Part shown: positions 1-64,000 of the stretch, one piece after another
Position numbering within the stretch: position 1 is the first letter of the stretch
Layout: the number at the start of each line of letters is the position of its first letter
Source of the DNA: Candidatus Methylacidiphilales bacterium
Lineage (GTDB): Bacteria > Verrucomicrobiota > Verrucomicrobiia > Methylacidiphilales > JANWVL01
Reading direction: 5' to 3'
NCBI GenBank assembly: GCA_025056655.1
Contig: JANWVL010000110.1
Location: 77,855-141,854 of the forward strand
Length of the DNA: 64,000 nt
Notes under the pieces: generated by a model
What the model was told of the DNA's origin: nothing
Seen by the model: only the letters and a program-made list of their open reading frames with translations
Databases searched by the model: none
Program-made: the position numbers and the translations under genes

Positions 1-243
1 GTTTTTTTCAAGGCCGATGTCAATAAACATTGCTTTAAGGCCGAGCTCGATATTTTGGACGCGTCCTTTGTAGATGTTGCCGGAGATCTGACGGTCTGAG
101 TCGCGCTCGATGACAAACTCTTCTAACCGTCCATCCTCGAGTAAGGCGACGCGGCGCTCAAGGCGCTCACAGGAGATGATAATTTCTTTTACGGGCTTAT
201 TTTTCTTGATGCCTAGAATTTGTTTGACTTTGTCGATGAACAT
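1..243 (-). CDS. rng: Ribonuclease G/E family protein, N-terminal 81 codons (gene continues past window start)
   Basis: Open-ended, so absent from the ORF track. Hand translation of the reverse strand from the ATG at 241-243 gives MFIDKVKQILGIKKNKPVKEIIISCERLERRVALLEDGRLEEFVIERDSDRQISGNIYKGRVQNIELGLKAMFIDIGLEKN. The GNIYKGRV...G..A.F.DIGL.K segment matches the S1-domain N-terminus of RNase G/E. Confidence 0.75.
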   Translation of the reverse strand, partial: MFIDKVKQILGIKKNKPVKEIIISCERLERRVALLEDGRLEEFVIERDSDRQISGNIYKGRVQNIELGLKAMFIDIGLEKN

Positions 244-275
244 ATGAATGGGTGGGAATTTTAAAACGGATAAAA

Positions 276-1424
276 CTAGGTGCTAAAGGTGTAACGCCTG
301 TGGATCCAGACGCTTTGAACTAAGCCGACGGCAGTAAGGCAAGTGACCATGAAGGTGCCTCCGTAGCTCGTGAAGGGAAGGGGAATACCGGTGATGGGAA
401 CGACTTTCATGGTCATGCCGATGTTAATGAAGGTGTGAGTGAAAAGCATTGCGACAATGCCGGTTACAAGGAGCATCCCGCTTAAATCTCGGGCTTTAAG
501 AGCGATTTTTATGGATAGTAGCATAACGGATGTCAAAGCAATGATGAGGAGGGAAGCTCCACGAAAGCCGAATTCTTCAGCGACTACGGAGAAGATAAAG
601 TCTGTGTAGGAAATATCGCGAGGAAGAAATCCGAGTTTATTTTGGCCGCCTTGGAGATAACCGCGGCCTTCCATCCCTCCCGAGCCTATTGCGATGAGAG
701 ATTGATTGATAGTCCAGCCTGCGTTTCGCGGGTCGCGATTGGGATCAAAGAAGGTGAGGATGCGTTCCATTTGGTAAGTTTTGAGGAAGGGGATTTTGTG
801 GTTGAGCTTGTAAACGTAATAATAAAGGTAGATGATGGCAGAAATCAGCAGAATGATGGGGATGGCGAGATAACGTTTCTTGACGCCGCCCACGAGCATG
901 ATGGCATAAACAATTGGAAGGAAAACGAAGGCAGACCCTAGGTCTGGTTGCTTTAGGATAAGAGCCATAGGGATTGCTGCAAGGATGAACATGAGAATGA
1001 ACAGGATACCTCCTTTTCTCGAGGCGCGAATCATCACTGCAACGGCAAAACAGATGAAGGCAAGCTTGGAGAATTCCGCTGGTTGAATTCCCGGGAGGTT
1101 TCCGATACGAATCCAGCTTTTGGAGTTATTTACGACGGTGCCAAATAGAAGCACTGCAACGAGCAAAACCAGAGAGAAGAGGAAAATTATATGGGCATGT
1201 TTTATCCATATTTTGTAGTCAATCAGAGCAGCGATAATATAAAAGATGAAGCCGATTATGATCCACAAGCGTTGAGAGTCGGCGATTGTGCGCATTTCAG
1301 CTGACTCGTGCATGTAGGTAGCGCTATGCACAAAGTAATAGCTAGCGGTGCACAATCCTAAGACTATGAAAAATAGAGCCCAATCCATAGCCCATAACTT
1401 TCTGAAATAGAGTTTGATATTCAT
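276..1424 (-). CDS. rodA: Rod-shape SEDS protein RodA (FtsW/RodA/SpoVE family)
   Basis: 382-aa polytopic membrane ORF with the C-terminal GIPLPFTSYGGT motif typical of SEDS proteins. It lies immediately downstream of the PBP2 gene. Confidence 0.9.
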   Translation of the reverse strand: MNIKLYFRKLWAMDWALFFIVLGLCTASYYFVHSATYMHESAEMRTIADSQRLWIIIGFIFYIIAALIDYKIWIKHAHIIFLFSLVLLVAVLLFGTVVNNSKSWIRIGNLPGIQPAEFSKLAFICFAVAVMIRASRKGGILFILMFILAAIPMALILKQPDLGSAFVFLPIVYAIMLVGGVKKRYLAIPIILLISAIIYLYYYVYKLNHKIPFLKTYQMERILTFFDPNRDPRNAGWTINQSLIAIGSGGMEGRGYLQGGQNKLGFLPRDISYTDFIFSVVAEEFGFRGASLLIIALTSVMLLSIKIALKARDLSGMLLVTGIVAMLFTHTFINIGMTMKVVPITGIPLPFTSYGGTFMVTCLTAVGLVQSVWIHRRYTFST

Positions 1425-1428
1425 AAGC

Positions 1429-3486
1429 TTATCGCCTTCTAGGTAGAATTGAAGGGGGTGAGGGAGGAGGTGGAGCAGGAGAGGGATTGGCAGTTGGAGG
1501 ATTAGTCGCCGCAGGAGATGCTCGCCTTAAAATTCTAGATGAAATGTTGCTTGAGACAGGCTTGACACCTTTAAAGTGGCCTTTGGTCGGGGGGAGAACT
1601 GACATTTGATCTAAGGTTAGGCCAACCCCTTGTTCTAGTTTGTAGATTTCTTCCATGATTTTTCTAACAATGGGTCCGGCCGTTCTTCCCCCACTTTCTC
1701 CTCCTTCAACTACCACTGCGAAAGCATATCGTGGATTATCATAAGGTGCATAGCCGACGAGCCAAGCGCGGTTATCTTGGACGATTTGATTATTCATGCG
1801 GGTCTTGAATTGTGCTGTTCCCGTCTTTGCGGCGATTGGGAAGTAGGGGATATTCGCACTAGTTCCGGTGCCTGCTGTAACGCAAGCACGCATCCCTCTT
1901 CGGACGACTTCAAAGTCGCGCGGGATAGAGTTAATAGTTGAGAGAATGCGTGAGGGCGTAAAAGCAATGACGTCGCCTTCAAAGTTACTGACTTGTTTCA
2001 AAAGACGTGGATAGTAGACGTTGCCACCATTGGCAATCGCTGCTGCGAAAATAGCCATTTGCAGAGGAGTAGTCTTGACCACACCTTGACCTATCGAGAC
2101 ATTTGCAAGAAAAGCGTCTGAGACGTGTTCACTGCCGGTGTATTTTTTCAACCATTCTGGGGTAGGGATGATGCCTGGGTCTTCTGGAGGCAATAGGTAG
2201 TTTAGCCGATACCCAAATCTGGCTTCATCGCACAATTGAACAATAGGAGCAAGGCCCATCCGAATAGCAGTCTTGTAAAAAAAGGTGTTGATGGACATAC
2301 GCAAGGCGTCTTCAAGATTCACAGGTCCCCAGGCTTGGTTTCTTACGTTTCTAAAGCTGAGATTACCAATCTGTATGAACGCTGGAGAATCAACATAGGT
2401 GTCTGGTGTAAGTGTGCCAGATCTTAAGGCAGCTAGACCGACGAGAAGTTTAAAAGTTGATCCAGGAGCATATGAACTAACTGCGCGGTTAAAAAGGGGA
2501 GCCGCTGGATTGGTGTTAAGTTCTTTCCATAGCGCTGGAGATATGCTCGGAATAAAGGCGTTCGGGTCGTAATTCGGAAAAGATGCAATGGCGAGTATAT
2601 CGCCATTTTGCGTGTCGATAATGACCGCAGCACCACGTCCAACGTCAAATTCACGCATGGCAGTCTCGACGATATATTGTATCCGCACATCGATGGTGAG
2701 GAATACGGAGTTGCCGACGGTGGCTTCGACGCGCTTGATTTCATTTTGAATCGCACCACGAGAATCAACGCTCACCATGCGATATCCAGGTTGGCCTTGC
2801 AATTGGGCATCCATCACTTGCTCGATGCCTTTCCTTCCGACCGTTTCATATTCCCATTCCTTTATTTTTGCATCTTTATCTTTAGGGTTGATAATTAGGG
2901 CCTTTTCTGAAGTATCAGGCCTTCCGATATACCCCATCACGTGGGGAGCGAGCGCACCATAAAGATATCGACGAACGGGACGAGGAGTAATGCCGATACC
3001 TGTAGTTCCTAAATTTTTTTCAAGAAAGAGAGAGATTTTGTCGAAGCTTAGATCGCTCAATACTGGATAAGGCAGGTCTGTGCGAATCCGAAAATGGGTC
3101 TGAAGGTCACGCTCGTTGATGGGGATCTCAATACCAAGGCTTTTAGAAATGGGCTCAAGTTGTTCCTTTACAAGGCGGACAATTTTTTTTTCATCAATAT
3201 TTCGATATCTTCGTGGGGCATTTCTGCGAATCTCTTCCAGATCAAGATCGAGATCGAAACTTACACGGTTTTCCGCAAGGGGAACTCCGTTGCGGTCATA
3301 AATCCCACCACGAGCCGGGGGCAGACGTAGAGTGACGGTGGTTTGATCCCGTATCCTTTCAAGCATCTCAGGGCTGTTGCTTTGAAGTTCATAAAGGCGA
3401 AAAACTAAAACAGCCATCGCGAAAAGCACTGCGATAGCCAGTAGATAAAGCCTTTGCGAATGCGTGTAACCCTGGTCGAATAACAT
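1429..3486 (-). CDS. mrdA: Penicillin-binding protein 2 (elongation transpeptidase)
   Basis: 685 aa with an N-terminal TM anchor and transpeptidase motifs PGSTFK (SxxK), SIN (SxN) and KTGTA (KTG). It sits between mreD and rodA. The last ~45 residues are a Pro/Ser-rich tail (SPAATNPPTANPSPAPPPPSPPSILPRRR). Confidence 0.9.
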   Translation of the reverse strand: MLFDQGYTHSQRLYLLAIAVLFAMAVLVFRLYELQSNSPEMLERIRDQTTVTLRLPPARGGIYDRNGVPLAENRVSFDLDLDLEEIRRNAPRRYRNIDEKKIVRLVKEQLEPISKSLGIEIPINERDLQTHFRIRTDLPYPVLSDLSFDKISLFLEKNLGTTGIGITPRPVRRYLYGALAPHVMGYIGRPDTSEKALIINPKDKDAKIKEWEYETVGRKGIEQVMDAQLQGQPGYRMVSVDSRGAIQNEIKRVEATVGNSVFLTIDVRIQYIVETAMREFDVGRGAAVIIDTQNGDILAIASFPNYDPNAFIPSISPALWKELNTNPAAPLFNRAVSSYAPGSTFKLLVGLAALRSGTLTPDTYVDSPAFIQIGNLSFRNVRNQAWGPVNLEDALRMSINTFFYKTAIRMGLAPIVQLCDEARFGYRLNYLLPPEDPGIIPTPEWLKKYTGSEHVSDAFLANVSIGQGVVKTTPLQMAIFAAAIANGGNVYYPRLLKQVSNFEGDVIAFTPSRILSTINSIPRDFEVVRRGMRACVTAGTGTSANIPYFPIAAKTGTAQFKTRMNNQIVQDNRAWLVGYAPYDNPRYAFAVVVEGGESGGRTAGPIVRKIMEEIYKLEQGVGLTLDQMSVLPPTKGHFKGVKPVSSNISSRILRRASPAATNPPTANPSPAPPPPSPPSILPRRR

Positions 3487-3989
3487 TACGTTTCCTTTCT
3501 CTGCCTTTCAGGAAGCATGGAGAAGATTAGCAACGTGATACCACAAATTAACGGAGCTATGATTCCGTTTAACAGACTCGGAATCAGAATCTTATTCCAT
3601 AAGCCGAAATCCCATCGCCAGTATTGACTTATGAAACAGTATCCCAAGTAATCTACAATCATAAACACAAAAGTTCCCATTAAAGCTAGCATAAATGCCG
3701 CCCAAAAAAGGTTTTTCTCAAAGACCTGCATCTGAAATAAGACGAACCAAGCCAAGAAGCCATACGAAATCAAAGATATAGCAATAGGCTGTGCTGAAAA
3801 AACAGAATGAAAGACGACTGTAACTCCAGTAGATACATACACACGCTCATCCCGCATATGAATCGCTGCTAATACCACTGTGAGAGCTGGAAGTTCGGGG
3901 CGCCACGCAGTCAGCGAAGAGGGATTGAAAAGGGTCATCTGCAATACCACGGCAAGACAACCAAGGATAATGTAATAGAACACCATCAT
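3486..3989 (-). CDS. mreD: Rod shape-determining protein MreD
   Basis: 167-aa very hydrophobic ORF. It overlaps the mreC stop by 4 nt and the mrdA start by 1 nt. The call rests on size, hydrophobicity and the conserved mreB-mreC-mreD order. Confidence 0.7.
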   Translation of the reverse strand: MMVFYYIILGCLAVVLQMTLFNPSSLTAWRPELPALTVVLAAIHMRDERVYVSTGVTVVFHSVFSAQPIAISLISYGFLAWFVLFQMQVFEKNLFWAAFMLALMGTFVFMIVDYLGYCFISQYWRWDFGLWNKILIPSLLNGIIAPLICGITLLIFSMLPERQRKET

Positions 3990-4831
3990 TCTGGCTTTAA
4001 TATAATAAATAAATCATCAATCTTTGATGGATCTATCGCCGGGTCTACAATTGCTTCTAAATTTAAACCAAAATTAACCGTTTGCCTCAATGGCAACACT
4101 TCAAGCACGCTGCCAACGTATAGACCTGCAGGAAAAGTTCCCCCCAATCCAGTAGTAAAAAGGCGCTCCCCCGGGGCAATCTGTGCATCTCTATCAATGT
4201 AAATCATTCTCAATAAGGGCCTACCGTCTTTTCCAACCCCACCGCCTTTCACGATGCCCTGCACGTTAGTCCCTTCGGTGGCTACAGAGATATGCGAATT
4301 TTCGTTAAAAATCAAAATAACCTCTGTCTTCATCCCCATCACTTGGCCAGTTTTTCCCACTACTCCGCGAGGTGATATCACAGGCAAATCTCGATCCAGA
4401 TTGGCTCCCGGAATGCCCTTTACATCTTTCCAACCACGATTTACAATTACCGTGCTCCACCACGCTGAAGGGTCACGCTCTACGACTTTGGCAGCCAACA
4501 ACTGAAAACTCGATGCGCGCTTGAAATTCAACATTTCCCGTAGTCGCGCGTTTTCAACAGATAATTCCCGAAAATACGCATTTTCAGTCTCTAGACGATT
4601 GACCTTCATCTGAAGCGCTTTCACTTGCTCTTGAAGTTGTTCGACCGTTAATCTCCCTGCTTGAATATTCCCTACAAAACTTCTTGCTCGATCGGCTGAT
4701 TCAAAAATTCCGTGTAGCCAATCGAATAATTTCTCTCTTGCTTTTTCTTTGGCCTTCTCTGGAGATAAAAATATCACCGCTAGAACCATTCCGCTGATAA
4801 ACACCCCCATCAAAACACGCCGCCTAAACAT
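3986..4831 (-). CDS. mreC: Rod shape-determining protein MreC
   Basis: The ORF runs 3986-4921, but the likely start is the internal ATG at 4829-4831 (MFRRRVLMGVFISGMVLAVIFL). That gives a TM anchor, a coiled coil (LQEQVKALQMKVNRLETENAYFRELSVENARL) and a beta-rich C-domain. The longer ORF would overlap mreB. Confidence 0.85.
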   Translation of the reverse strand: MFRRRVLMGVFISGMVLAVIFLSPEKAKEKAREKLFDWLHGIFESADRARSFVGNIQAGRLTVEQLQEQVKALQMKVNRLETENAYFRELSVENARLREMLNFKRASSFQLLAAKVVERDPSAWWSTVIVNRGWKDVKGIPGANLDRDLPVISPRGVVGKTGQVMGMKTEVILIFNENSHISVATEGTNVQGIVKGGGVGKDGRPLLRMIYIDRDAQIAPGERLFTTGLGGTFPAGLYVGSVLEVLPLRQTVNFGLNLEAIVDPAIDPSKIDDLFIILKPE

Positions 4832-4895
4832 ACCACCATCCCTTCTTCCATTCACTAATAATGAGGAGACACCATCATCGCTGCAGCGCCCAAGA

Positions 4896-5933
4896 TCAAG
4901 CTTGCCCCTCTGTCTCAGCAATCTTTCTCAGATAACGGAACTCCTGCAACACTTTACCAGTCCCCTCCGCTACAGCACTCAACGGATCCTCAGCCACATG
5001 CACAGGTAAACCTGTTTCCTCAGCCAAAAGCCGATCAATCCCCCGAAGCAAGGCCCCACCTCCTGCCAATACAATCCCTCGCTCCACTAAATCAGCTGAT
5101 AACTCTGGCGGGCACCGCTCAAGCGTGATACGCACACTTTCGACTATCACTGACAACGGTTCCATCAAGGCCTCACGCACCTCTTGAGAGGTGATCGACA
5201 AAGTCTTGGGAAGACCAGCTACTAAATCGCGGCCTTTTACCTCCATCGTCGTTTCTTTTTCCATCGGATAGGCAGATCCGATTTTGATTTTAATTTCCTC
5301 CGCCGTTCGTTCCCCAATCATAAGATTGTAGGCGCGCCGCATGTAGTTAATGATGCTCTCGTCGAGCTCATCACCTGCCACACGAACGCTTCGGCTATAT
5401 ACAATCCCTGCCAGTGAAATAATCGCGACTTCCGTCGTGCCCCCACCGATGTCCACAATCATATTTCCGCTTGCCTCCTGGACGGGCAACCCCACACCTA
5501 TCGCAGCAGCCATAGGTTCCTCGATCAAGTGCACTTCGCGCGCGCCAGCATGCCTCGCAGAATCCTGCACCGCCCTTTTTTCCACCTCGGTAATACCGCT
5601 GGGCACGGCAATCACCACACGCGGACGGCGAAGTTTAAGACGTGTCTGCACCTTATGGATAAAAGCCTTCAGCATGGCTTCAGTCACCTCGAAATCTGCA
5701 ATCACGCCATCCTTCAACGGTCTTACCGCGATGATGTTCCCCGGCGTCCTTCCAAGCATCCGCTTGGCTTCTTCCCCGACAGCAAGCACCTTGCGTGTCC
5801 CCTGTGCGATCGCCACCACGCTCGGTTCTCGCAGCACAATGCCTCTATCTTTCACGTAGACAAGTGTGTTCGCCGTCCCCAAATCAATCCCGATGTCGTT
5901 TGAAAATAAACCTGATAGATGCTTCAGAATCAT
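4896..5933 (-). CDS. mreB: Actin-like rod shape protein MreB
   Basis: 345 aa with actin/Hsp70-fold motifs [15 protein letters not shown] and LAGGGALL, and an overall MreB-like sequence. Confidence 0.95.
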
Positions 5934-6151
5934 ATCACAAATCCTAATCCTTTTTCTCTTAGTAGGCTAAACATTTACGTTTCCAATTTTACCCCCTCCA
6001 TTCCAAGTAGCTTCCGACAGGAAGTCACAGTTCCACAACACCTCTTAGCAAAAAAGTCATTCGTTTGGTTCAACTTTTTCATGGTGCAGACAAACTCACA
6101 CGTTGCCCTACTCAACTCCATACTTCAATAAATAAAAACAATCCTTCCCAC

Positions 6152-6490
6152 TCAACGAGAATCCTCCTCTTCTAGCCGCTCAGCAATCCATTGCTTAATC
6201 ATCGATTGGTAATTTAAATATCGCATACGTGCCAACCGCTTCAGACGTGCCAACATCCTCGGATGCATCCGCAACGTAATCATAGTAGACTCTCCTGCAT
6301 CCCCAGTTATTAAAGAACCTCGCATCAACGACTCGCTCAAACCATGACTCCTCCAATACTCAACCTCCTCCTGAGTGCTTATAAAATAAGGCACCTCATC
6401 CCAAGAATATAATGTCTTGATCTCCCGCTTATCTTGAGAAGATACCCCTTCAAAGTATCCGCTCCCCTCAGATTGTAAATCCTTCACCAT
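6152..6490 (-). CDS. brnA: BrnA-type antitoxin (CopG/RHH-like C-terminus)
   Basis: 112 aa. EEVEYWRSHGLSESL followed by ITLRMHPRMLARLKRLARMRYLNYQSMIKQWIAERLEEE matches the BrnA layout. It overlaps the upstream BrnT-like gene by 7 nt. Confidence 0.7.
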   Translation of the reverse strand: MVKDLQSEGSGYFEGVSSQDKREIKTLYSWDEVPYFISTQEEVEYWRSHGLSESLMRGSLITGDAGESTMITLRMHPRMLARLKRLARMRYLNYQSMIKQWIAERLEEEDSR

Positions 6491-56786: not shown

Positions 56787-56829
56787 CCGCGACGATCCCC
56801 AGAAAATAACCCCATACGAAGGATTTCTA

Positions 56830-56870
56830 TTCAATCATTGCCACCACCAAAAATTCGAGCAATGATTCAA
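56830..56870 (+). terminator. Stem-loop ttcaatcattgc-N17-gcaatgattcaa between ptsI and the nucleotidyltransferase gene
   Basis: 12-nt arms with one mismatch, read from the sequence. Terminator or regulatory hairpin. Confidence 0.35.
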
Positions 56871-56883
56871 GTCTAATACCTCT

Positions 56884-57636: not shown

Positions 57637-57680
57637 CAAACGTTACTCTGTTTGCTTATCTCATCCAAGCTCTTACTCTC

Positions 57681-58796
57681 TCAAGCCACGATATACCGGC
57701 GCACGCGCTTGCTAATTCCCGTCAATACTTCCCACGGAATCACCCCCGTGCGCTCTGCGAGCTCGCGAACGCTTATCTCTTCAGAGCCACACTTTCCTAC
57801 AAGTGTCACCTCTTCACCTGTTTGGATGCTCTCTCCCCTCATATAAATGGAACTTAAGTCCACCATCACTGCATCCATCGTTACACGCCCTAAAATAGGA
57901 CAACGCCGTCCTTTAACCAAGATCTCCCCATTGTTTGAGAGCTTACGCGGATAACCATCCGCATATCCTACACTCACAACTCCCACCCAGGCATCTTCCT
58001 TTAGACGATAAGTTGCACCGTAGCTGATAGTCATTCCCGCGCGCATGTGCCTCACGAGTGAAACACGACTCTTCCACGTTAGCACAGGCCGTAGTTTCTC
58101 TTGATTCTGAATCAAGGGAGAGACGCCATACACCATCAAGCCAGGGCGGACAGCATCCCCATAAAGGCTCGGGAATCGCATCAATCCAGCGCTATTCGCT
58201 AAATGCCAAGGTCTTTGTGGAAGCTCTCTTAAGATGCCTCTGAAACGCTCTTCTTGAATTAAAGTCATCTTCTCATCCTCTTCGTCTGCACATGCTAGAT
58301 GGCTATAGTAAGCTTCCACAACTAGCCACCTCGAAGAACGCAATATGCGCTCCCTCACAGCTGTAGTTCTGTCAGCGAAAAAACCTAAACGTCCCATCCC
58401 TGTGTCGAATTTCACATGCGCCCTAGCCTTTATTCCTACCCTTTCTGCTTTGTGTTCCAACGTTTCCCATTCTTCAAAACTTGAAAGCGTAAAAATCAAT
58501 CCAGCTTTAATACCTTCTTCCATCTCCTCCGGTAACGCTGCCCCGAGTAGCAGAATTGAAGCGCTCAGGCCTGCTTCTCTTAATTCTAAGCCTTCCCGCA
58601 CATTCGCTACACCCAACATTTCAACCCCATTATCTACTAAACAACGTGCCACCTCCACAGCTCCATGTCCGTAAGCATCCGCTTTGACGACCGCGATGAT
58701 CTTCCGATCTTTTCCAATCTGTTTTCGAATAAATTGCACGTTGTGCTGCAGTGCAGTTAACGAAATTTCCGCCCACGAACGATCGCATCCTTTCAT
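57681..58796 (-). CDS. alr: Alanine racemase
   Basis: 371 aa with the PLP-lysine motif AVVKADAYGHGA and a typical C-terminal beta-domain. Confidence 0.9.
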   Translation of the reverse strand: MKGCDRSWAEISLTALQHNVQFIRKQIGKDRKIIAVVKADAYGHGAVEVARCLVDNGVEMLGVANVREGLELREAGLSASILLLGAALPEEMEEGIKAGLIFTLSSFEEWETLEHKAERVGIKARAHVKFDTGMGRLGFFADRTTAVRERILRSSRWLVVEAYYSHLACADEEDEKMTLIQEERFRGILRELPQRPWHLANSAGLMRFPSLYGDAVRPGLMVYGVSPLIQNQEKLRPVLTWKSRVSLVRHMRAGMTISYGATYRLKEDAWVGVVSVGYADGYPRKLSNNGEILVKGRRCPILGRVTMDAVMVDLSSIYMRGESIQTGEEVTLVGKCGSEEISVRELAERTGVIPWEVLTGISKRVRRYIVA

Positions 58797-59383
58797 GACA
58801 TCTTCTCGATCGGTAAATAAAAAGGTTCCAGACGTTCACGCTGCCAGTCTTGAAAATTAGGATCATCATAAAGATCTAGATAATCTTCGGCTCTAGGAAA
58901 AATTCGTTCCAACCGCTCATCTCTCCAATCTGCCGTAGCAGCAAGCGTGCCCTTTGAGAGACAGTTATCCAATTCTTCGCTTCTGACCATATAAGTTGCC
59001 CGATACAGCTTCCCCCGCTCATATTCCGTCACATACACACAACCCCTTCGAGCATCAGTTACTAAAATTAAGCGCGTCACATGACGCATCTGTCGTCCTT
59101 GGGAATAATGGCTCCATACCCCCCACACCTCGCATCCCTTTACTAAAGCCAATCCGTAAGCCATCGCTAAACCCACACGTATACTGGTAAAAGATCCAGG
59201 CCCGAGGCCAATCAAGATCTTGTCTAATGCGATGGATTCAAGCTCAAGACGGATTAACGCTCGGGTGAGGGATTCTGAATGACGCTGCGGAGAGAAGAAA
59301 CGCTCGACCTTTCTCATTTCTTTCCCCCTTGCAAGGGCCACGGATCCATAAGCGGAGGAAGTTTCAATCGCCAAAACATTCAT
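58793..59383 (-). CDS. tsaB: tRNA t6A biosynthesis protein TsaB (YeaZ)
   Basis: 196 aa with the N-terminus MNVLAIETSSAYGSVAL and GPGSFTSIRVG. It is adjacent to tsaE and overlaps the alr start by 4 nt. Confidence 0.8.
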   Translation of the reverse strand: MNVLAIETSSAYGSVALARGKEMRKVERFFSPQRHSESLTRALIRLELESIALDKILIGLGPGSFTSIRVGLAMAYGLALVKGCEVWGVWSHYSQGRQMRHVTRLILVTDARRGCVYVTEYERGKLYRATYMVRSEELDNCLSKGTLAATADWRDERLERIFPRAEDYLDLYDDPNFQDWQRERLEPFYLPIEKMS

Positions 59384-59401
59384 GCAGACCTTTGCTTATT
59401 T

Positions 59402-59824
59402 TTATATCGTCTCCCACGCGTAACTCCGCGCCTGCCCATAAAACGCAATTCGCATCTCCACCGTCTTCCCTTTTGGCATACCTCGTGGATGACGCTCAGG
59501 CCATTCTACGAGTGCTAGATCAGCCTCAGCGAGCATCTCATCAAAAAAACGCCAAAACGAAAAATCATCAGGTTCGATACGATACAAATCAAAATGATCC
59601 ACACGCCTTGCTCCCCCTTCGTATGTGTGATGCAAAGTAAAGGTCGGACTTGTCACCTCTCCTTTGTAGCCCAGCGCATCCATCAAAGCCTGACACAGAG
59701 TCGTCTTGCCCACGCCTAAATCTCCTCGAACCGCGAGAACGGAATAATCACGCAGATTGTCCACCCAGCTTCGCATCCAAGTCTCCAGCGCATCTTTACC
59801 CTGTATGACAATTTCGCCTTTCAT
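59402..59824 (-). CDS. tsaE: tRNA t6A biosynthesis ATPase TsaE (YjeE)
   Basis: 140 aa with the P-loop RGDLGVGKTTL and the SPTFTL..Y....H.DLYR motif. Confidence 0.85.
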   Translation of the reverse strand: MKGEIVIQGKDALETWMRSWVDNLRDYSVLAVRGDLGVGKTTLCQALMDALGYKGEVTSPTFTLHHTYEGGARRVDHFDLYRIEPDDFSFWRFFDEMLAEADLALVEWPERHPRGMPKGKTVEMRIAFYGQARSYAWETI

Positions 59825-59836
59825 TTATTTTTTAAC

Positions 59837-60733
59837 TCAATCGCCTCTTAGATGATCATACCCTTTCCAAGGCCATTCTCTGAGTGTCTCGCTTACGCGT
59901 CCACGCATTTCTCCAATGCAACTAAGCGGTGTTGAAAAAGGCCATTTTCGTTCCAAGCTTTTCGCCTTACTCTTCGGCACTGTAAATAGCAACTCATAAT
60001 CTTCCCCTGTCTCCATTGCCTCATGAAGACTCACTCCAGGAAATCGAGGGATTCTTTTTTCATCTAATCTAACCCCCACATTCGAAGCCAATACCAGCCT
60101 GATCAAATCTATCCCTAAACCATCGCTGATATCCATCATCGCTGTGGGATAACCGTGTCGCGCTAGCCACTGTCCTTCTGCAAGTCGAGGTGAAAAAGTC
60201 AAATGCCGCCGAGGCATGGCGCCGCCGAGCCTACCCGTCACGTAGACGTAATCGCCACTCTTCGCGCCAGCGCGGCCAATCACTCTCTGAGTCCATCCAA
60301 GAGCTGCAACAGATAAGACCAGCTGCCGAGTGGTCACGGTCTCTCCTCCGACAAGCAAAAGTTTCACCTTGTCAGCCATAGCTTGCATTCCCGCATAGAC
60401 AGCCTTAAGGCGGCTAGTGCTAATTCCACGGGGACGTCCTAAGGTCACTACAGCCACCCACGGTCGGCCTCCCATCGCAGCGATGTCGCTTAAGACGCGC
60501 GCTATCGCTTTGCGACCGACTAGCCTAGGAGATGTCGAGGATTCAAAATGCACATCTTCAACGATTGCGTCGGTCTTAAAAAGAAGATAACGTGACCGGC
60601 CGCTGCTAGTTACACTGAGGACGGCACAGTCATCTCCTACACCTTTTACTATGCTTGCATCTTGCTGCCAATAGCGGGTAAGAGTGGCAATCAACGAGAT
60701 TTCGCTCAAGCCTGTATCCCGATAAGACTTCAT
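59837..60733 (-). CDS. thiL: Thiamine-monophosphate kinase
   Basis: 298 aa with GDDCAVL, an AIR-synthase-like fold pattern, and DISDGL. Confidence 0.85.
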   Translation of the reverse strand: MKSYRDTGLSEISLIATLTRYWQQDASIVKGVGDDCAVLSVTSSGRSRYLLFKTDAIVEDVHFESSTSPRLVGRKAIARVLSDIAAMGGRPWVAVVTLGRPRGISTSRLKAVYAGMQAMADKVKLLLVGGETVTTRQLVLSVAALGWTQRVIGRAGAKSGDYVYVTGRLGGAMPRRHLTFSPRLAEGQWLARHGYPTAMMDISDGLGIDLIRLVLASNVGVRLDEKRIPRFPGVSLHEAMETGEDYELLFTVPKSKAKSLERKWPFSTPLSCIGEMRGRVSETLREWPWKGYDHLRGD

Positions 60734-60769
60734 TTGTCTCTCACGTTAAGACGGCTATTTTCAAAATCA

Positions 60770-61225
60770 ATGACAGCCCAACGGAAAACAGTATCTGATC
60801 TATCCACATGCCTTACAGAGCCATGCTGGCTTGTGAAACAAGAACCCTCCGCTTACAGCTTTTCGCAATTTCTCGAAGAAAAGACAACGGCTTGGACAGG
60901 AGTTCGCAATCCACAGGCGCGTAAAAATCTTCGCGCAATGCGCAAAGGCGATTTTGTTTTTTATTATCACACAGGGAATGAGAAAGCGATTGTGGGTGCA
61001 GCTAAAGTTAAAAAAGAAGCATATCCAGATCCTACTGATACAAGCTGGGACTGTGTCGATCTGGAAGCGATCGGTTTTTTACCACGGCCTCTCCCCCTCG
61101 CTGAAATAAAGTCTGATCCCCGTCTTCAAGATCTTCCGCTCGTCCGCCAAGCACGCCTTTCGGTGATGCCTATTCCTAAAGACCAAGCGGAATATATTCT
61201 CCGGCGTTGTAGGGGAAACTCATGA
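60770..61225 (+). CDS. EVE (PUA-like) domain protein
   Basis: WLVKQEPSAYSFSQFLEEKTTAWTGVRNPQARKNLRAMRKGDFVFYYHTGNEKAIVGAAKV matches the EVE/DUF55 family. The likely start is MTAQRK (60770), not the ORF-track 60662, which overlaps thiL. Confidence 0.8.
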   Translation: MTAQRKTVSDLSTCLTEPCWLVKQEPSAYSFSQFLEEKTTAWTGVRNPQARKNLRAMRKGDFVFYYHTGNEKAIVGAAKVKKEAYPDPTDTSWDCVDLEAIGFLPRPLPLAEIKSDPRLQDLPLVRQARLSVMPIPKDQAEYILRRCRGNS

Positions 61226-61247
61226 AGCAGAACAGCCTGTCGAAGCT

Positions 61248-61919
61248 CTAAAAAAACACTTCTGAAACAATCGGACGATGCTCTTCGTCTTGAAGTCTGC
61301 CTTCACGAGTCCATCGAAAAGTAATGACACCTGTCTTTTTTTGAATCCAAGCGGCATGCCAATCTTCATAAAACGCGCCATGAGAGAAAAAATCATTTAA
61401 GACTACCGCTTTCACTTCCAACCCATCGGATAAAATGCGCTCCACCGTCAACAACGTATGGTTGATTGTGCCCAAGCTATTCCTTGCGACTACAATCACT
61501 GGGAAGCCTAGCATTTTAGCCCATTGAGATATATCCATATCTTCGGACAACGGCACGCGCCATCCTCCTGCCCCCTCGACCACACCGCAGTCGAACTGCT
61601 GCAAAGTCATGCACACGATGCTGTGCAGCTCTTCAAAATCAATTTTTTTAGTCTGCACGCCTAGTGATAGAGCACGATGCTGCTCTGCAAAATAAGGGGC
61701 GGCAGGCTCGTTCCAAAAGAAAGGGTTTATCTCATCCAGAGAAAGCGAGCTTTCAGAAGCTGATTGGAGAATCTGAGCATCTTCGCGATCCCCTGTAGCA
61801 AACGGCTTCAATCCGACAACACGACGACCTTGTTTTCGCCACGTCTGTAACAACCATGCACAAAAAGCAGTCTTGCCTACGCCTGTATCTGTTCCCGTAA
61901 CAAAATAATAATGACGCAT
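61248..61919 (-). CDS. bioD: Dethiobiotin synthase
   Basis: 223 aa with the N-terminal P-loop YFVTGTDTGVGKT and EGAGG. Confidence 0.85.
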   Translation of the reverse strand: MRHYYFVTGTDTGVGKTAFCAWLLQTWRKQGRRVVGLKPFATGDREDAQILQSASESSLSLDEINPFFWNEPAAPYFAEQHRALSLGVQTKKIDFEELHSIVCMTLQQFDCGVVEGAGGWRVPLSEDMDISQWAKMLGFPVIVVARNSLGTINHTLLTVERILSDGLEVKAVVLNDFFSHGAFYEDWHAAWIQKKTGVITFRWTREGRLQDEEHRPIVSEVFF

Positions 61920-61993
61920 CTCCGTTATCTAAGCCGACTCCTTCATTGAAAGGCAACGTCGAGTTTGCTACCAAAGGGAGTTCACTGTGCTCC

Positions 61994-63154
61994 ATGAGAA
62001 TTGTTGTCTGTGGCCTCTTAGCTCAATATCCATTTGGAGGGGTTATTTGGGATTACATTCAATACGTGCTTGGATTTCGAGCTTTAGGGCATGAGGTCTG
62101 GTATCTCGAGGATACAGGATGCTGGCCATATCATCCAATCGAGCAGACTTATACAGAAGATGCTTCGCATAATATCGCGGCTTTGCGACAGATCATGGAT
62201 GAATTCGGGTTAAGCGATCGCTGGATCTATCGAAACGGTGCTACAGGAGAAATCACCTCTACAGCATCTTTGAGCTTGGCAGCCCTGATTGAGGAAAGCG
62301 ATTTAGTTGTAAACGTCTCAGGTGCCGCTTTGCTTCAAGGGTTAAGAAAAGGAAAGAGCCATTGGATGTATCTCGACGGTGACCCGATGTTTACACAGAT
62401 TCGGTTGGTAGATGAAAAAGAGGCCTTTCAGCGGAAGCGACTTTCTGAATATGACTCTCATTTTACATTCGGTTTAAACATCGGATCTGAAGATTGTATC
62501 GTCCCGACGGGTGGTTTTCTCTGGCGAAAAACAGTTCAGCCGATTTCCTTGGAGCATTGGCCTGTGGTAACACAAGCGCCTGCACTCCCTTGGACGACCG
62601 TCATGAATTGGAATAGCTATGCCTCAACTGTGTGGCAGGGCGAGCGATATGGACAAAAAGATTTCGAATTTATGCGGTTTAAGGAGCTACCACAAAAAAC
62701 TACTGCCCGGTTTACTATTGCGATGGGACAAGGGCCGGGACGAAAACGTCCTACGGCAGAGTTGTTGAATCTAGGCTGGCAAATTGTCGAGCCAGATCAG
62801 GTCGTCCCAGATCATCATACTTACCGCGATTTTATCCTTCGCTCTTACGGTGAATGGAGCGTGGCGAAGGAGGGTTATGTAAAATCACGCAGTGGGTGGT
62901 TTAGTTGTCGCACGGCTTGCTACTTAGCTGCAGGACGTCCTGCGATCGTCCAAGATACTGGCTGGAGCCGCTATTTACCAACAGGTCACGGGCTCTTTGC
63001 TTTCGATGGTATGGAGGATATTCTTCATGCCTTAAAAGAGGTAGAGAGCAATTATGAAGAGCATTGCCTTGCAGCGCGGCAGCTAGCTGAAGAGCATTTT
63101 GAGGCAACAAAGGTGTGCAACGATTTATTAAGACAAATTGGCCTAGATCAATAA
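61994..63154 (+). CDS. Putative glycosyltransferase (GT-B-like, CgeB-type C-terminal domain)
   Basis: MRIVVCGLLAQYPFGGVIWDYIQYVLGFRALGHEVWYLED plus the C-terminal ..SCRTACYLAAGRPAIVQDTG resemble an uncharacterised GT-like family I recall only loosely. It is followed 9 nt later by an SDR epimerase gene. Confidence 0.4.
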   Translation: MRIVVCGLLAQYPFGGVIWDYIQYVLGFRALGHEVWYLEDTGCWPYHPIEQTYTEDASHNIAALRQIMDEFGLSDRWIYRNGATGEITSTASLSLAALIEESDLVVNVSGAALLQGLRKGKSHWMYLDGDPMFTQIRLVDEKEAFQRKRLSEYDSHFTFGLNIGSEDCIVPTGGFLWRKTVQPISLEHWPVVTQAPALPWTTVMNWNSYASTVWQGERYGQKDFEFMRFKELPQKTTARFTIAMGQGPGRKRPTAELLNLGWQIVEPDQVVPDHHTYRDFILRSYGEWSVAKEGYVKSRSGWFSCRTACYLAAGRPAIVQDTGWSRYLPTGHGLFAFDGMEDILHALKEVESNYEEHCLAARQLAEEHFEATKVCNDLLRQIGLDQ

Positions 63155-63163
63155 ACGACGCTG

Positions 63164-64000
63164 ATGCAAAAGTCCCTTTCTGTTTTGATGACCGGGGCTA
63201 CTGGATTTTTAGGGAGTCAGGTAGCACGGCGACTTCTGGAGCGTGGGCATCACTTGGTAGCGCTCTGTCGCCGTGCCTCTATTCTTCGGCGGTTGACGCA
63301 GCGTGAGATCGAAAAGATTCATTGGCTTCACATCGAGGAAAATGGAGTGCGCAGGGCATTTGAAACTCCTATTGATGTGGTCATTCACACTGCGACGAAC
63401 TACGGCTATCGGGGTTCTTCGATAAATGACATTTTGGAGGTTAACCTTTTGCTGCCTCTGCAGATCTTAGACTATGCGGCACAACACGGGGTGTCGCTTT
63501 TTATAAGCACTGACACGATGTTGACTAAATTTCTAAACGATTATGCTTTGACAAAGTCCCACCTCACCGATTGGGGGCGTCGGTTTGCGGATTTGGGGAA
63601 AATCGCATTTTGTAATTTGCGAATCGAGCACATGTATGGGGTCGGAGACAATCCAGAACGTTTTACTGAATACGTGATTCAGGCCTGCTTGAAGAACGTC
63701 CCGCATCTTGATTTAACGCTGGGAGAACAATATCGGGACTTTATCCATGTGAGCGACGTAGTAGAAGTCTACGATAGATTGCTGAGCGTTTTCTATGGTG
63801 CTCCGCCGCAGTTTTGTGAGTTTGAAGTAGGAACCGGGGTCGCAACTCGAGTGCGGGATTTTGTTGAAATGGTGCATCGGTTGACGGAGTCGCGCACAGA
63901 ACTTCGTTTTGGTGCCGTGCCTTATCGGTTGCATGAGATCATGTATGCGTGTGCGAATATCGAACCGCTCAAAGAATTTGGCTGGCAACCGAAAGTAAAG
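63164..64000 (+). CDS. NAD-dependent epimerase/dehydratase (extended SDR), 3' end beyond window
   Basis: Absent from the ORF track because it is open-ended. Hand translation from the ATG at 63164 gives MQKSLSVLMTTGATGFLGSQVARRLLERGHHLVAL... with the TGATGFLG Rossmann motif and YALTK (YxxxK). No stop codon occurs up to 64000. Confidence 0.75.
   Translation, partial: MQKSLSVLMTGATGFLGSQVARRLLERGHHLVALCRRASILRRLTQREIEKIHWLHIEENGVRRAFETPIDVVIHTATNYGYRGSSINDILEVNLLLPLQILDYAAQHGVSLFISTDTMLTKFLNDYALTKSHLTDWGRRFADLGKIAFCNLRIEHMYGVGDNPERFTEYVIQACLKNVPHLDLTLGEQYRDFIHVSDVVEVYDRLLSVFYGAPPQFCEFEVGTGVATRVRDFVEMVHRLTESRTELRFGAVPYRLHEIMYACANIEPLKEFGWQPKVK

What the first reader, a model, noticed from the sequence alone, without database searches (positions are those of the whole stretch)
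1..64000. Mosaic of blocks with strong, opposite G/C strand asymmetry that ignores gene orientation
I hand-counted G and C on single 60-nt lines of the + strand:
- 2401-2460: G18/C9
- 3601-3660: G8/C16
- 5401-5460: G10/C23
- 12001-12060: G6/C22
- 15781-15840: G21/C9
- 26041-26100: G8/C20
- 27001-27060: G23/C13
- 37201-37260: G27/C11
- 44281-44340: G34/C7

By eye the + strand is G-rich at ~1-3.5 kb, ~15.7-17.5 kb, ~26.5-31.1 kb and ~36-52 kb. It is C-rich at ~3.5-15.65 kb, ~19-26.3 kb and, more weakly, ~54.7-61.9 kb.

Within a block, genes on both strands share the same + strand polarity. For example, minus-strand mreBCD/perM and plus-strand dinG/lptD all lie on a C-rich + strand. Minus-strand rfbH..cutA and the plus-strand ABC genes and ispG all lie on a G-rich + strand. 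The bias therefore behaves like a DNA-strand (replication-type) bias rather than a coding-strand bias. A single replichore should show one polarity over 64 kb. Several sign changes suggest repeated local rearrangement, patchwork recombination or HGT, or misassembly.
Basis: partly seen in the sequence, partly recalled or inferred. Interest (0 to 1): 0.6.

Follow-up and report, generated by a model that had tools for sequence, protein, structure and literature searches.

The report
Extreme mosaic DNA strand bias
This 64-kb stretch of chromosome from an uncultured Methylacidiphilales (Verrucomicrobiota) bacterium really is a patchwork of blocks in which one DNA strand is nearly stripped of C and A, or in neighbouring blocks of G and T, whatever the gene direction; the bias is as strong as in mitochondria, and gene-order rearrangement explains only some of its sign changes.

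Summary
All nine hand counts are exact. GC skew in 1-kb windows runs from -0.51 to +0.63. At third codon positions the + strand reaches G125/C2/A2/T38 per 167 sites.

The sign follows the DNA strand, not the coding strand. It extends to intergenic DNA and to amino-acid composition. Independent assemblies cover every sign switch, so it is not a misassembly.

The window comes from a Methylacidiphilales MAG (GCA_033577315.1). Its relatives show the same dense mosaic. In 1.7 Mb of other, mostly verrucomicrobial, loci there is one comparable switch.

Outgroup-polarised changes show C>T plus A>G on the G+T-rich strand, 21 against 1. This is the deamination signature of single-stranded DNA.

Best explanation (confidence 0.45): an exceptionally strong replication-type strand mutation bias, scrambled by frequent rearrangement. 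One relative carries a 5-kb inverted pyc-guaA patch with reversed skew and sharp edges.

Rearrangement does not explain everything. One boundary lies inside the intact pyc gene at about codon 520. A skew hill and its decline through ispG, next to the 6S RNA gene, recur in three lineages whose synonymous sites are near saturation between the window and the other two. A stable positional process is not excluded.

The parts
1..3409 (.). Weakly G+T-rich block on the + strand (rodA, mrdA). It is the right flank of a hill that peaks over rng just left of the window.
   Evidence: Third-position keto index +0.14 and GC3 skew +0.41. The left extension L088 peaks at +0.47 over rng.
3412..12392 (.). C+A-rich block on the + strand. 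It spans minus-strand genes (mreD, mreC, mreB, the BrnT/CopG pair, an AI-2E/PerM transporter, an OmpA-like gene) and plus-strand genes (dinG/yoaA and most of a 735-aa unknown).
   Evidence: Third positions A.27 C.42 G.12 T.20, keto index -0.37. Both orientations share the sign. Covered by independent contig L002.
12395..15622 (.). Strongly C+A-rich block (end of the 735-aa gene, FKBP isomerase, sigma-54 response regulator RR1). It ends abruptly in the 83-nt spacer before the PMT_2 gene.
   Evidence: Third positions A.27 C.58 G.08 T.07, keto index -0.69. The switch lies within about 15.65-15.75 kb. The junction is confirmed by L175 and L176.
15625..19094 (.). Near-neutral block (PMT_2 glycosyltransferase, beta-barrel outer-membrane protein), weakly + between 16 and 17 kb.
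   Evidence: Keto index +0.03; gene families.
19097..26199 (.). C+A-rich block (Wzc-like kinase, polysaccharide export protein, DUF2851 on the minus strand, htrA, and pyc codons 1 to about 520).
   Evidence: Third positions A.29 C.44 G.10 T.17, keto index -0.46. DUF2851(-) has the same + strand sign as its + strand neighbours.
26202..31056 (.). G+T-rich block (pyc codons about 520-1176, guaA, and a minus-strand 463-aa gene). Its left edge lies inside pyc. Its right edge is at the divergent spacer before hsp20.
   Evidence: Keto index +0.33. The best-fitting step is at codon 520, nt 26218. Covered by independent contig L085.
24658..28188 (+). Pyruvate carboxylase gene. It is intact, has no indels relative to its 87%-identical relative, and contains a - to + polarity boundary.
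   Evidence: - Keto index by quarter: -0.42, -0.20, +0.14, +0.30 (p = 1e-20; rho = 0.29, above all 725 outgroup genes).
- The relative L084 is uniformly negative along the gene.
- Differences at codon positions 1+2 against L084: 39:36 in codons 1-520, 59:28 in codons 521-1176.
31059..35727 (.). Near-neutral block (hsp20, acpP, fabF, a 177-aa gene, RNase P RNA, start of a DUF6268 gene).
   Evidence: Keto index -0.03. rnpB lies at 34294-34746(-), 201 bits.
35931..36004 (+). tRNA-Pro(CGG), at the left foot of the large G+T-rich hill.
   Evidence: ARAGORN and Rfam. The skew rises from about 35.1 kb and is +0.4 by 36.1 kb.
35730..42947 (.). Strongly G+T-rich block. It holds three minus-strand genes, the plus-strand ABC solute-binding protein and permease, and the 3' part of DegT.
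   Evidence: Third positions A.11 C.08 G.52 T.29, keto index +0.61. The plus-strand SBP and permease are at +0.67 and +0.73.
42950..49684 (.). Extreme G+T-rich block (DegT/RfbH-like, epimerase, sigma-54 response regulator RR2, a 227-aa gene, RlmI-like methyltransferase, a 380-aa gene; all on the minus strand).
   Evidence: - Third positions A.03 C.03 G.70 T.25, keto index +0.88.
- Four-fold sites of RR2 on the coding strand: C.82 A.17 G.00 T.01.
- The same genes form a weaker hill in the relatives L172 and L174.
49687..51627 (.). Declining flank of the hill (cutA and most of ispG).
   Evidence: Keto index +0.54.
50197..51972 (+). ispG. The bias drops within the gene, between its second and third quarters, in three lineages.
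   Evidence: - Quarters in the window: +0.58, +0.64, +0.35, +0.12. In L172: +0.27, +0.23, +0.05, -0.05. In L174: +0.26, +0.32, +0.05, +0.03.
- Forty outgroup ispG genes show a first-half minus second-half difference of 0.02 +/- 0.11.
51995..52173 (-). 6S RNA gene in the ispG-sufB spacer, at the right foot of the hill. It is far better conserved among the three lineages than the neighbouring coding DNA.
   Evidence: Rfam RF00013, 52.2 bits against a gathering score of 46.4. Three-way alignment, 71% mean column identity. ispG itself is only 61% identical at the nucleotide level.
51630..63988 (.). Weakly C+A-rich region (sufB, hprK, ptsH, ptsI, a nucleotidyltransferase, and alr-tsaB-tsaE-thiL-bioD on the minus strand). 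It turns weakly G+T-rich after about 62 kb.
   Evidence: Keto index -0.07 overall, with 500-nt bins from -0.25 to +0.28.
14219..15652 (+). RR1, a sigma-54 response regulator. It is the inverted paralogue of RR2 (45067-46560, minus strand). Each sits at the extreme of an opposite-polarity block, and both have a C+A-rich coding strand.
   Evidence: Inverted repeats I1-I3, 73-78% complementary. Family assignments.

Best explanation
The window records an unusually strong strand-asymmetric mutation pressure: C to T and A to G on whichever strand is left single-stranded for longer. This is the classical replication-type asymmetry, here with the intensity seen in mitochondrial DNA. It acts in a probably thermophilic Methylacidiphilales lineage whose gene order is shuffled very often.

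Each block carries the polarity of the orientation it has held relative to fork movement. Inversions and translocations of blocks of one to a dozen genes place opposite polarities side by side. Each block then drifts towards the polarity of its new orientation.

Shown:
- The bias is at the level of the DNA strand.
- Its substitution spectrum is C>T plus A>G.
- The dense mosaic is specific to this clade.
- Rearrangement is rampant.
- One relative has a clear inverted patch with reversed skew.

Inferred:
- The single-stranded exposure is the one that occurs at replication forks.
- Most switches in this window are rearrangement junctions.
- A modest preference for C-ending codons is added on top.
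For: - The sign is independent of gene orientation, strongest at synonymous sites, and shared by intergenic DNA.
- G and T rise together. T/(C+T) is about equal to G/(A+G) in all 11 segments.
- Outgroup-polarised changes in the window lineage, pyc codons 500-1176: C>T 13, A>G 8, T>C 1, G>A 0.
- In relative L084 only pyc-guaA is syntenic. There the pair has reversed skew (-0.28, -0.13) inside a + background (+0.1 to +0.5), with sharp steps exactly at both synteny breakpoints. It is also inverted relative to the DUF6268 gene when compared with the window.
- The homologue of the gene after guaA lies next to dinG in L173, so that gene has probably moved.
- Strong sign switches number 1 in 1685 kb of outgroup loci, against 3 in the window, 2 in L084, 1 in L172 and 2 in the left extension.
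- Sharp edges at 15.65 kb and 31.06 kb fall in intergenic spacers, and the foot of the large hill is at a tRNA gene.
- An optimal growth temperature of about 55 C, estimated from amino-acid composition, fits a high deamination rate.
- Inversions and transferred DNA are a recognised source of extra skew shift points (PMC3269016).
Against: - One polarity boundary lies inside the intact pyc gene, which has no indels. An inversion cannot put it there. The same boundary is seen at amino-acid-changing positions.
- The hill over DegT-cutA and its decline through ispG recur in three syntenic lineages. ispG is 61% identical at the nucleotide level between the window and each relative, and 78% between the two relatives. 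This suggests a maintained landscape rather than a passing state.
- Both polarities approach saturation within 35 kb of each other. With one fork direction, one of them should be eroding. No gene shows the expected mismatch between fast and slow sites: the keto index of codon positions 1+2 tracks that of position 3 with r = 0.85.
- No inverted repeats, IS elements or integrases were found at block edges.
- About 62% of coding length lies on the C+A-rich strand. Under the usual polarity this is the lagging strand. The figure is my own tally from the values.
Confidence: 0.45

Rival explanations
1. The mosaic is a stable positional landscape. It would be a heritable map of which strand is locally exposed as single-stranded DNA, because fork direction (or another strand-displacing process such as recombination- or R-loop-primed synthesis) alternates over domains of 5-20 kb. 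Boundaries would be fixed by local features such as highly transcribed RNA genes. It would not be a record of past rearrangements.
For: - The hill and the drop inside ispG, beside the 6S RNA gene, recur in three lineages and are absent from 40 outgroups.
- A boundary lies inside intact pyc.
- Amino-acid composition is in step with third-position skew in blocks of both signs.
- Both polarities are near saturation close together.
- The hill over rng in the left extension rises and falls gene by gene across an orientation switch.
- The dense mosaic occurs at every locus sampled from the clade.
Against: - No bacterium is known to replicate in alternating directions on this scale.
- No DnaA-box cluster and no dif site were found.
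- Apart from pyc and ispG, within-gene trends are no stronger than in 725 outgroup genes, so the profile is mostly stepwise by gene.
- Orthologous genes can have opposite sign in relatives: SBP and permease between the window and L172, and pyc 3' half and guaA between the window and L084. dinG also differs in strength (-0.42 against -0.10).
- The inverted patch in L084 behaves exactly as rearrangement predicts.
Confidence: 0.25
2. The mosaic is patchwork replacement. Segments of a few kb would be imported by homologous recombination or gene transfer from related lineages in which the same genes sit in the opposite orientation to replication. End-points could then fall anywhere, including inside genes.
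For: - The 4.85-kb block 26202-31056 has two fairly sharp edges, one inside pyc. A single step fits as well as a ramp.
- Its size is typical of recombination tracts (my own knowledge).
- Relatives do carry oppositely skewed alleles of the same genes.
Against: - Oppositely skewed alleles differ at most synonymous sites (40-50% third-position identity), which should block homologous exchange.
- Amino-acid identity to L084 is uniform along pyc (0.87, 0.85, 0.90), so there is no sign of a different donor.
- The blocks carry housekeeping genes, with no mobility genes.
- It does not explain the landscape conserved around ispG.
Confidence: 0.12
3. The bias is a property of the coding strand. It would come from transcription-associated mutation or from selection for C- and A-ending codons, spreading into neighbours through read-through or antisense transcripts.
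For: - About 62% of coding length, and the most extreme genes, have a C+A-rich coding strand (my tally).
- In L172 nearly every gene except ispG has a C+A-rich coding strand.
- Outgroup genes also lean slightly that way (mean coding GC3 skew -0.09).
- At four-fold sites the data fit a preference of about 1.5-fold for pyrimidine-ending codons on the coding strand (my calculation).
Against: - Many genes have a strongly G+T-rich coding strand: SBP +0.67, permease +0.73, DUF2851 +0.62, AI-2E +0.49, guaA +0.42.
- There is no jump at 9 of 11 orientation switches.
- Intergenic DNA shares the bias.
- The sign is opposite to the known transcription-associated asymmetry, which makes the coding strand G+T-rich (my own knowledge).
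Confidence: 0.08
4. The mosaic is an assembly or binning artefact: a chimeric contig joining DNA from different organisms or strands.
For: The source is a metagenome-assembled genome.
Against: - Independent Logan contigs from SRR15826902, SRR15826901 and SRR25904939 reproduce all junctions at 99.96-100% identity.
- Genes spanning boundaries are intact and conserved.
- Relatives from other samples share the synteny and the pattern.
Confidence: 0.02

Closest known systems
Replication-associated strand compositional asymmetry of bacterial chromosomes (GC/AT skew; cytosine-deamination theory; reviewed in PMC3269016)
   Same: One strand is rich in G and T and the other in C and A. The bias is independent of gene orientation. 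It is strongest at synonymous and intergenic sites. The substitution excess is of the single-stranded-DNA deamination type.
   Different: Ordinary chromosomes show one polarity per replichore and switch only at the origin and terminus. Methylacidiphilum genomes do this, with the origin near dnaA (PMC2474590, PMC4210602). Here the sign changes about every 5-15 kb, no origin or terminus markers are present, and third-position skew reaches 0.95-0.97.
Local GC-skew anomalies left by recent inversions or transferred DNA ('pseudo-shift points', PMC3269016; the Yersinia pestis CO92 skew anomalies, from my own knowledge)
   Same: Polarity is reversed in a block with sharp edges at rearrangement breakpoints. 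This is seen directly in relative L084 (pyc-guaA).
   Different: The switches are roughly a hundred times denser than in related genomes. One boundary lies inside an intact gene. One hill and its edge are conserved across three lineages. Neither repeats nor mobile elements sit at the block ends.
Strand asymmetry of animal mitochondrial DNA, and the Galdieria sulphuraria mitogenome (GC skew 0.74, a thermoacidophile; PMC4316638)
   Same: The magnitude is comparable. The bias reaches amino-acid composition. In animal mtDNA the spectrum is C>T plus A>G on the strand exposed during strand-displacement replication. A hot, acidic habitat has been proposed as an aggravating factor.
   Different: Those are small organelle genomes with a single polarity. 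In Galdieria the G-rich strand is also A-rich. Here a bacterial chromosome carries both polarities side by side, and G goes with T.
Skew domains tied to replication fork direction in multi-origin genomes (human 'N-domains'; archaea), and polyploid cyanobacteria with irregular skew (all from my own knowledge)
   Same: Polarity alternates along one chromosome, with some sharp upward switches and some gradual downward ones.
   Different: Those skews are weak (a few percent). Their domains span about 100 kb to Mb or follow known origins. Nothing of the kind is known in Verrucomicrobiota, and no origin-like sequence was found here.

Membership tests
Replication-associated strand asymmetry (leading/lagging skew) | G>C and T>A on the same strand, regardless of gene orientation | tested here: met
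   GC and AT skew have opposite signs in all strong blocks. Genes of both orientations share the + strand sign.
Replication-associated strand asymmetry (leading/lagging skew) | Strongest at synonymous and non-coding sites (mutational, not selective) | tested here: met
   Codon position 3 is far more skewed than positions 1 and 2. Four-fold sites reach C.82-.84 with G.00. Intergenic DNA correlates with its flanks, r = 0.80.
Replication-associated strand asymmetry (leading/lagging skew) | One polarity per replichore, with switches only at the origin and terminus | tested here: not met
   There are at least seven sign changes across the window plus its 10-kb left extension.
Replication-associated strand asymmetry (leading/lagging skew) | Switch points coincide with oriC (DnaA-box cluster, dnaA) or with dif | tested here: not met
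   No DnaA-box cluster: 20 matches with at most one mismatch, against 11 +/- 3.5 expected, and scattered. No dif-like site with up to 6 mismatches. The dif test used proteobacterial and firmicute consensus sequences only.
Replication-associated strand asymmetry (leading/lagging skew) | Actual direction of fork movement matches the skew sign | not testable with these tools
   This needs read-depth profiles or a closed genome.
Skew patches created by inversion or translocation | Sharp polarity steps that coincide with synteny breakpoints relative to relatives | tested here: inconclusive
   Met in L084: both edges of pyc-guaA. In the window the edges at 15.65 and 31.06 kb are sharp and intergenic, but no relative covers them. 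L172 has sign switches inside a stretch fully syntenic with the window.
Skew patches created by inversion or translocation | Block ends lie between genes, never inside an intact gene | tested here: not met
   The pyc boundary is at about codon 520. ispG shows a drop shared by three lineages.
Skew patches created by inversion or translocation | Repeats, IS elements or tRNA genes at block ends | tested here: inconclusive
   tRNA-Pro sits at the foot of the hill at 35.9 kb. No inverted repeats above chance were found at four tested pairs of block ends. No IS or integrase genes are present.
Transcription-associated or codon-usage bias | The sign follows the coding strand and jumps where gene orientation switches | tested here: not met
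   There is no jump at 9 of 11 orientation switches. Neighbouring genes on opposite strands have opposite codon endings.
Horizontally acquired genomic islands | Accessory or mobility gene content, absent from relatives | tested here: not met
   The blocks carry mreB, dinG, pyc, guaA, ispG and an rRNA methyltransferase. The most extreme block is syntenic in L172 and L174.
Mitochondrial-type asymmetry (long single-stranded exposure during strand-displacement synthesis) | Excess of both C>T and A>G on the exposed strand | tested here: met
   21 against 1 in pyc codons 500-1176 and 8 against 2 in ispG, polarised with 40-45 outgroups.
Mitochondrial-type asymmetry (long single-stranded exposure during strand-displacement synthesis) | The bias grows with distance from a defined start of strand displacement | tested here: inconclusive
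   Some hills have one sharp and one gradual side (3.4 to 15.65 kb; 26.2 to 31.06 kb), but the pattern is not consistent.
Assembly chimera | Junctions are not reproduced by independent assemblies | tested here: not met
   All junctions are reproduced.

The most novel reading that the evidence does not exclude
The alternating polarity is a stable, inherited map of local strand exposure. In this thermophilic verrucomicrobial clade, replication (or another strand-displacing synthesis) would run in opposite directions over domains of 5-20 kb. Boundaries could sit inside genes or next to highly transcribed RNA genes such as the 6S RNA gene beside ispG. Each domain would then be at its own mutational equilibrium.
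Probability: 0.15. Interest if true: 0.9.

Novelty: new variant of a known kind. Interest (0 to 1): 0.62.

Why it matters
- This may be the strongest strand compositional asymmetry so far seen on a bacterial chromosome. It reaches mitochondrial levels and is strong enough to reshape protein composition: the share of Pro/Thr/His/Gln/Asn/Lys goes from about 0.11-0.21 to 0.30-0.41 between oppositely biased genes.
- It is a natural experiment on single-stranded-DNA deamination in a probable thermophile, on how fast skew re-equilibrates, and on how far proteins tolerate directional mutation pressure.
- There are practical consequences. Gene callers produce long spurious ORFs on such DNA. Origin prediction from skew fails. 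Phylogenies and binning by composition will be distorted.
- If the mosaic turns out to be a stable map rather than a rearrangement record, it would point to an unknown mode of chromosome replication or repair in bacteria. That question can be tested directly with reads that already exist.

Tried and rejected
- **Origin or terminus in the window.** No DnaA-box cluster, no dnaA or dnaN, and no dif-like site were found.
- **Invertible segment.** No inverted repeats above chance were found between the pyc linker and 31 kb, or at three other pairs of block ends.
- **Ramp versus step in pyc.** A single step at codon 520 (negative log-likelihood 1046.0) and a linear ramp (1048.1) cannot be told apart. 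I therefore withdrew my earlier reading of a 'gradual ramp'.
- **A smooth landscape everywhere.** Only pyc and ispG exceed the 99th percentile of within-gene trends in 725 outgroup genes. The general claim of smoothness is dropped.
- **Polarising third-position changes in L172 and L174 with the window as outgroup.** The window's extreme composition biases this, so the result is discarded.
- **Tests that did not discriminate.** These were the hysteresis test (pyrimidine ratio against purine ratio per segment) and the G:T ratio at four-fold sites. The two ratios are nearly equal, and a 1.5-fold codon preference explains the rest.
- **Transcription models** (sign by coding strand; read-through spreading). 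They fit some gene strings but fail for mreD-OmpA and ispG, and they need the opposite sign to the known effect.
- **Closer relatives.** Scans of genome and metagenome collections found nothing closer than 73% (pyc) and 70% (ispG). The relatives came only from the protein index.
- **Literature.** No paper mentions this MAG, its sequencing runs or its relatives. No report of comparable skew in Verrucomicrobiota was found.
- **SNPs between assemblies.** About 10 sites, too few and not polarisable.

Full report
**Observation**

The nine 60-nt hand counts of G and C are all exact. GC skew in 1-kb windows runs from -0.51 to +0.63. Its SD is 0.32, against 0.04 after shuffling. AT skew has the opposite sign, so the contrast is between a G+T-rich ('keto') strand and a C+A-rich ('amino') strand.

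I called genes from ORFs. I then corrected the calls with Pfam and NCBIfam, with Rfam, and with the gene calls attached to fetched contigs.

Third-codon-position skew reaches 0.95 in either direction in single genes. Between 45.5 and 46.5 kb the third positions read G125/C2/A2/T38 and G121/C2/A1/T42 on the + strand.

A penalised-likelihood segmentation of third-position bases gives 11 segments.

The sign belongs to the DNA strand.
- Minus-strand mreD/mreC/mreB, AI-2E and OmpA, and plus-strand dinG, FKBP and RR1, all lie on a C+A-rich + strand.
- The plus-strand ABC genes and ispG, and the minus-strand DegT-to-cutA genes, all lie on a G+T-rich + strand.
- At 9 of 11 junctions between oppositely oriented genes there is no jump.
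- Intergenic DNA shares the local sign (r = 0.80).

**How unusual it is**

The comparison set is 160 loci from other, mostly verrucomicrobial, genomes and metagenomes, fetched through pyc and ispG.
- Their 1-kb |skew| has a median of 0.057, a 99th percentile of 0.30 and a maximum of 0.43. The window's median is 0.27, and 42% of its windows exceed that 99th percentile.
- For 974 outgroup genes, |GC3 skew| has a median of 0.13 and a maximum of 0.79. The window's genes have a median of 0.51 and a maximum of 0.95.
- Strong sign switches (2-kb windows, |skew| at least 0.15 on both sides) occur once in 1685 kb of outgroup loci. There are 3 in the window, 2 in L084, 1 in L172 and 2 in the 21-kb locus L088, which covers the left extension and overlaps the window's first 11 kb.

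**Source and assembly**

The window is positions 33887-97886, reversed, of contig JAVQYG010000003.1 (167 kb) of GCA_033577315.1. The record is labelled 'MAG: Methylacidiphilales bacterium'.

Logan contigs assembled independently from SRR15826902, SRR15826901 and SRR25904939 match the window at 99.96-100%. They cover 1-14079, 14097-24058, 24031-35969, 40928-45261, 47176-56417 and 59956-64000. Every sign switch lies inside one of them, so misassembly is rejected.

Cultured Methylacidiphilum genomes have ordinary skew, with the origin near dnaA (PMC2474590, PMC4210602). The mosaic is therefore not a property of the whole order.

**Nature of the pressure**

In all segments T/(C+T) is about equal to G/(A+G) on the + strand. 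This implies matched C-to-T and A-to-G pressure on one strand.

I polarised changes at codon positions 1 and 2 with 40 outgroup pyc genes and the 87%-identical relative L084. In codons 500-1176 the window lineage shows C>T 13 and A>G 8, against T>C 1 and G>A 0. ispG gives 8 against 2. This is the signature of deamination of single-stranded DNA. It is the mechanism usually invoked for leading/lagging asymmetry (PMC3269016) and for mitochondrial strand bias.

The pressure has lasted long enough to reshape proteins.
- The keto index of positions 1+2 tracks that of position 3 across 50 genes (r = 0.85, slope 0.28).
- The share of Pro/Thr/His/Gln/Asn/Lys correlates with it at r = -0.79.

Amino-acid composition suggests an optimal growth temperature near 55 C. 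This is a rough estimate, itself affected by the bias.

**Evidence for rearrangement**

Relative L084 (JGI 3300060601) shares only pyc-guaA with the window.
- In L084 this pair has keto indices of -0.28 and -0.13, inside a background of +0.1 to +0.5.
- The steps are sharp at both synteny breakpoints.
- The pair is inverted relative to the DUF6268 gene when compared with the window.
- This is a textbook inverted patch.

In L173, from the same sample, dinG is followed by a 48%-identical homologue of the window's gene 29712-31103. That gene has therefore probably moved, or is a paralogue.

Orthologues can carry opposite signs in different lineages. SBP and permease are at +0.67/+0.73 in the window and -0.26 in L172.

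In the window, the edges at 15.65 kb and 31.06 kb are sharp and intergenic. The big hill starts at tRNA-Pro.

**Evidence that rearrangement is not the whole story**

(a) pyc (24658-28188) is intact and has no indels relative to L084, yet it changes polarity inside the gene.
- Its quarters are -0.42, -0.20, +0.14 and +0.30 (p = 1e-20). Its rho of 0.29 is above all 725 outgroup genes.
- With L084 as baseline, a single step at codon 520 (nt 26218, between the biotin-carboxylase and carboxyltransferase domains) fits as well as a ramp.
- The same boundary appears at positions 1+2. Keto-versus-amino differences from L084 are 39:36 in codons 1-520, 59:28 in codons 521-1176, and 75:32 in guaA.
- Amino-acid identity to L084 is uniform along the gene (0.87, 0.85, 0.90).
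- No inverted repeats link the two ends of block 26202-31056.

(b) Relatives L172 (GCA_053493595.1) and L174 (Logan SRR30649430) are syntenic with the window. L172 matches 40-54.7 kb, and L174 matches from the methyltransferase to sufB.
- Both show a weaker version of the same hill over the minus-strand genes they share with the window (DegT to the 380-aa gene in L172; methyltransferase to cutA in L174).
- Both show the same drop between the second and third quarters of ispG.
- In L172, sufB and hprK are then negative (-0.46, -0.64).
- Forty outgroup ispG genes show no such drop (0.02 +/- 0.11).
- ispG is only 61% identical at the nucleotide level between the window and each relative (78% between the two relatives). 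The shape has therefore persisted through many substitutions per synonymous site.
- The spacer beside the drop holds a 6S RNA gene on the minus strand. It is far better conserved than the coding DNA.

(c) Both polarities approach saturation within 35 kb of each other. No gene shows the mismatch between slow and fast sites that a block caught in mid-reversal should show.

**Limits on the 'smooth landscape' idea**

Apart from pyc and ispG, within-gene trends are no stronger than in outgroup genes. The profile is therefore mostly stepwise by gene.

Neighbouring genes often form monotonic series, for example mreB to rng and ispG to the nucleotidyltransferase. I could not show that this exceeds coincidence.

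**Coding-strand component**

There is a tendency for the coding strand to be the C+A-rich one: about 62% of coding length, by my tally. Four-fold sites fit a preference of about 1.5-fold for pyrimidine-ending codons (my calculation).

This cannot be the main cause, because many genes have strongly G+T-rich coding strands. Under the usual polarity (leading strand G-rich), it would place most genes on the lagging strand. That remains unexplained.

**Verdict**

The finding is real and more extreme than reported.
- Misassembly and foreign islands are rejected.
- Rearrangement is demonstrably part of the cause but does not account for the intragenic boundary in pyc, or for the hill and edge at ispG/6S RNA that are conserved across lineages.

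I rank the explanations as follows:
- strong replication-type deamination asymmetry plus frequent rearrangement: 0.45;
- a stable positional landscape: 0.25;
- segmental replacement from relatives: 0.12;
- coding-strand effects as the main cause: 0.08;
- artefact: 0.02.

The remaining probability is unassigned. The existing reads could decide between the first two through block-wise SNV spectra and read-depth profiles.

Noticed in passing
window 51995-52173 (-); L172 about 11790-11975; L174 about 5000-5180: A 6S (SsrS) RNA gene sits in the ispG-sufB spacer. It is highly conserved among three lineages whose flanking coding DNA is only about 61-78% identical. It lies exactly where the large skew hill reaches zero.
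   Followed up: partly
window 34294-34746 (-): This is the RNase P RNA gene (class A, 201 bits). A 116-aa ORF (34369-34719) that a naive ORF call places here is spurious.
   Followed up: yes
window 46583-48583 (-), 43965-44651, 45249-45911, 48498-49124 and others: The skewed blocks generate long spurious ORFs in wrong frames, because stop codons are depleted. The 666-aa ORF 46583-48583 overlaps the real RlmI-like methyltransferase gene (47269-48501). Gene callers will be misled on such DNA.
   Followed up: yes
window 14219-15652 (+) and 45067-46560 (-): Two paralogous sigma-54 response regulators lie in inverted orientation 30 kb apart (73-78% nucleotide complementarity over 65-296 nt). Each is near the extreme of an opposite-polarity block. 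RR1's codon positions 1 and 2 are much less shifted than RR2's (GC skew +0.15/-0.03 against -0.22/-0.43).
   Followed up: partly
window 43000-49800, + strand: There are dense G-runs and G/T-only low-complexity stretches (repeat families D1-D5, for example GGGGTGTGGTTGAGTGGGGGGGGGTGTTGGG). This is potential G-quadruplex-forming sequence on the template strand of the minus-strand genes.
   Followed up: no
window 6152-6759 (-): A BrnT-like toxin and CopG-like antitoxin pair is inserted between mreB and the AI-2E transporter gene.
   Followed up: no
window 13227: The window has G where both the NCBI record (L001) and the Logan contig (L002) have A. This is the only difference from the source record over the 15.9 kb compared.
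   Followed up: no
The 737-aa protein in the corresponding place in relative L173 is not detectably related to it.
   Followed up: partly
window 49741-50148 (-); L174 2759-3109; L172 9528-10000: cutA is present between the 380-aa gene and ispG in the window and in L174, but no gene is called there in L172. One Logan gene call (L177) put a 79-aa plus-strand ORF there instead.
   Followed up: no
window 28116-28124 and 28943-28951 (-): Two perfect DnaA-box nonamers (TTATCCACA) lie 830 nt apart near the pyc/guaA junction, inside coding sequence. About 0.5 perfect matches are expected in the window, but the reverse complement is favoured by the local G+T richness.
   Followed up: partly
window 60662-61225 (+) and 54710-55009 (+): An EVE-domain gene lies between thiL and bioD. 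A ptsH (HPr) gene lies between hprK and ptsI. My first ORF pass missed ptsH and called an opposite-strand ORF (54676-54984) instead.
   Followed up: no
L088 (window coordinates -9700 to 0): The mosaic continues to the left of the window. It is negative over acyltransferase to aspS (-0.2 to -0.3). It rises gene by gene to +0.47 over rng, then falls again through rodA and mrdA.
   Followed up: yes
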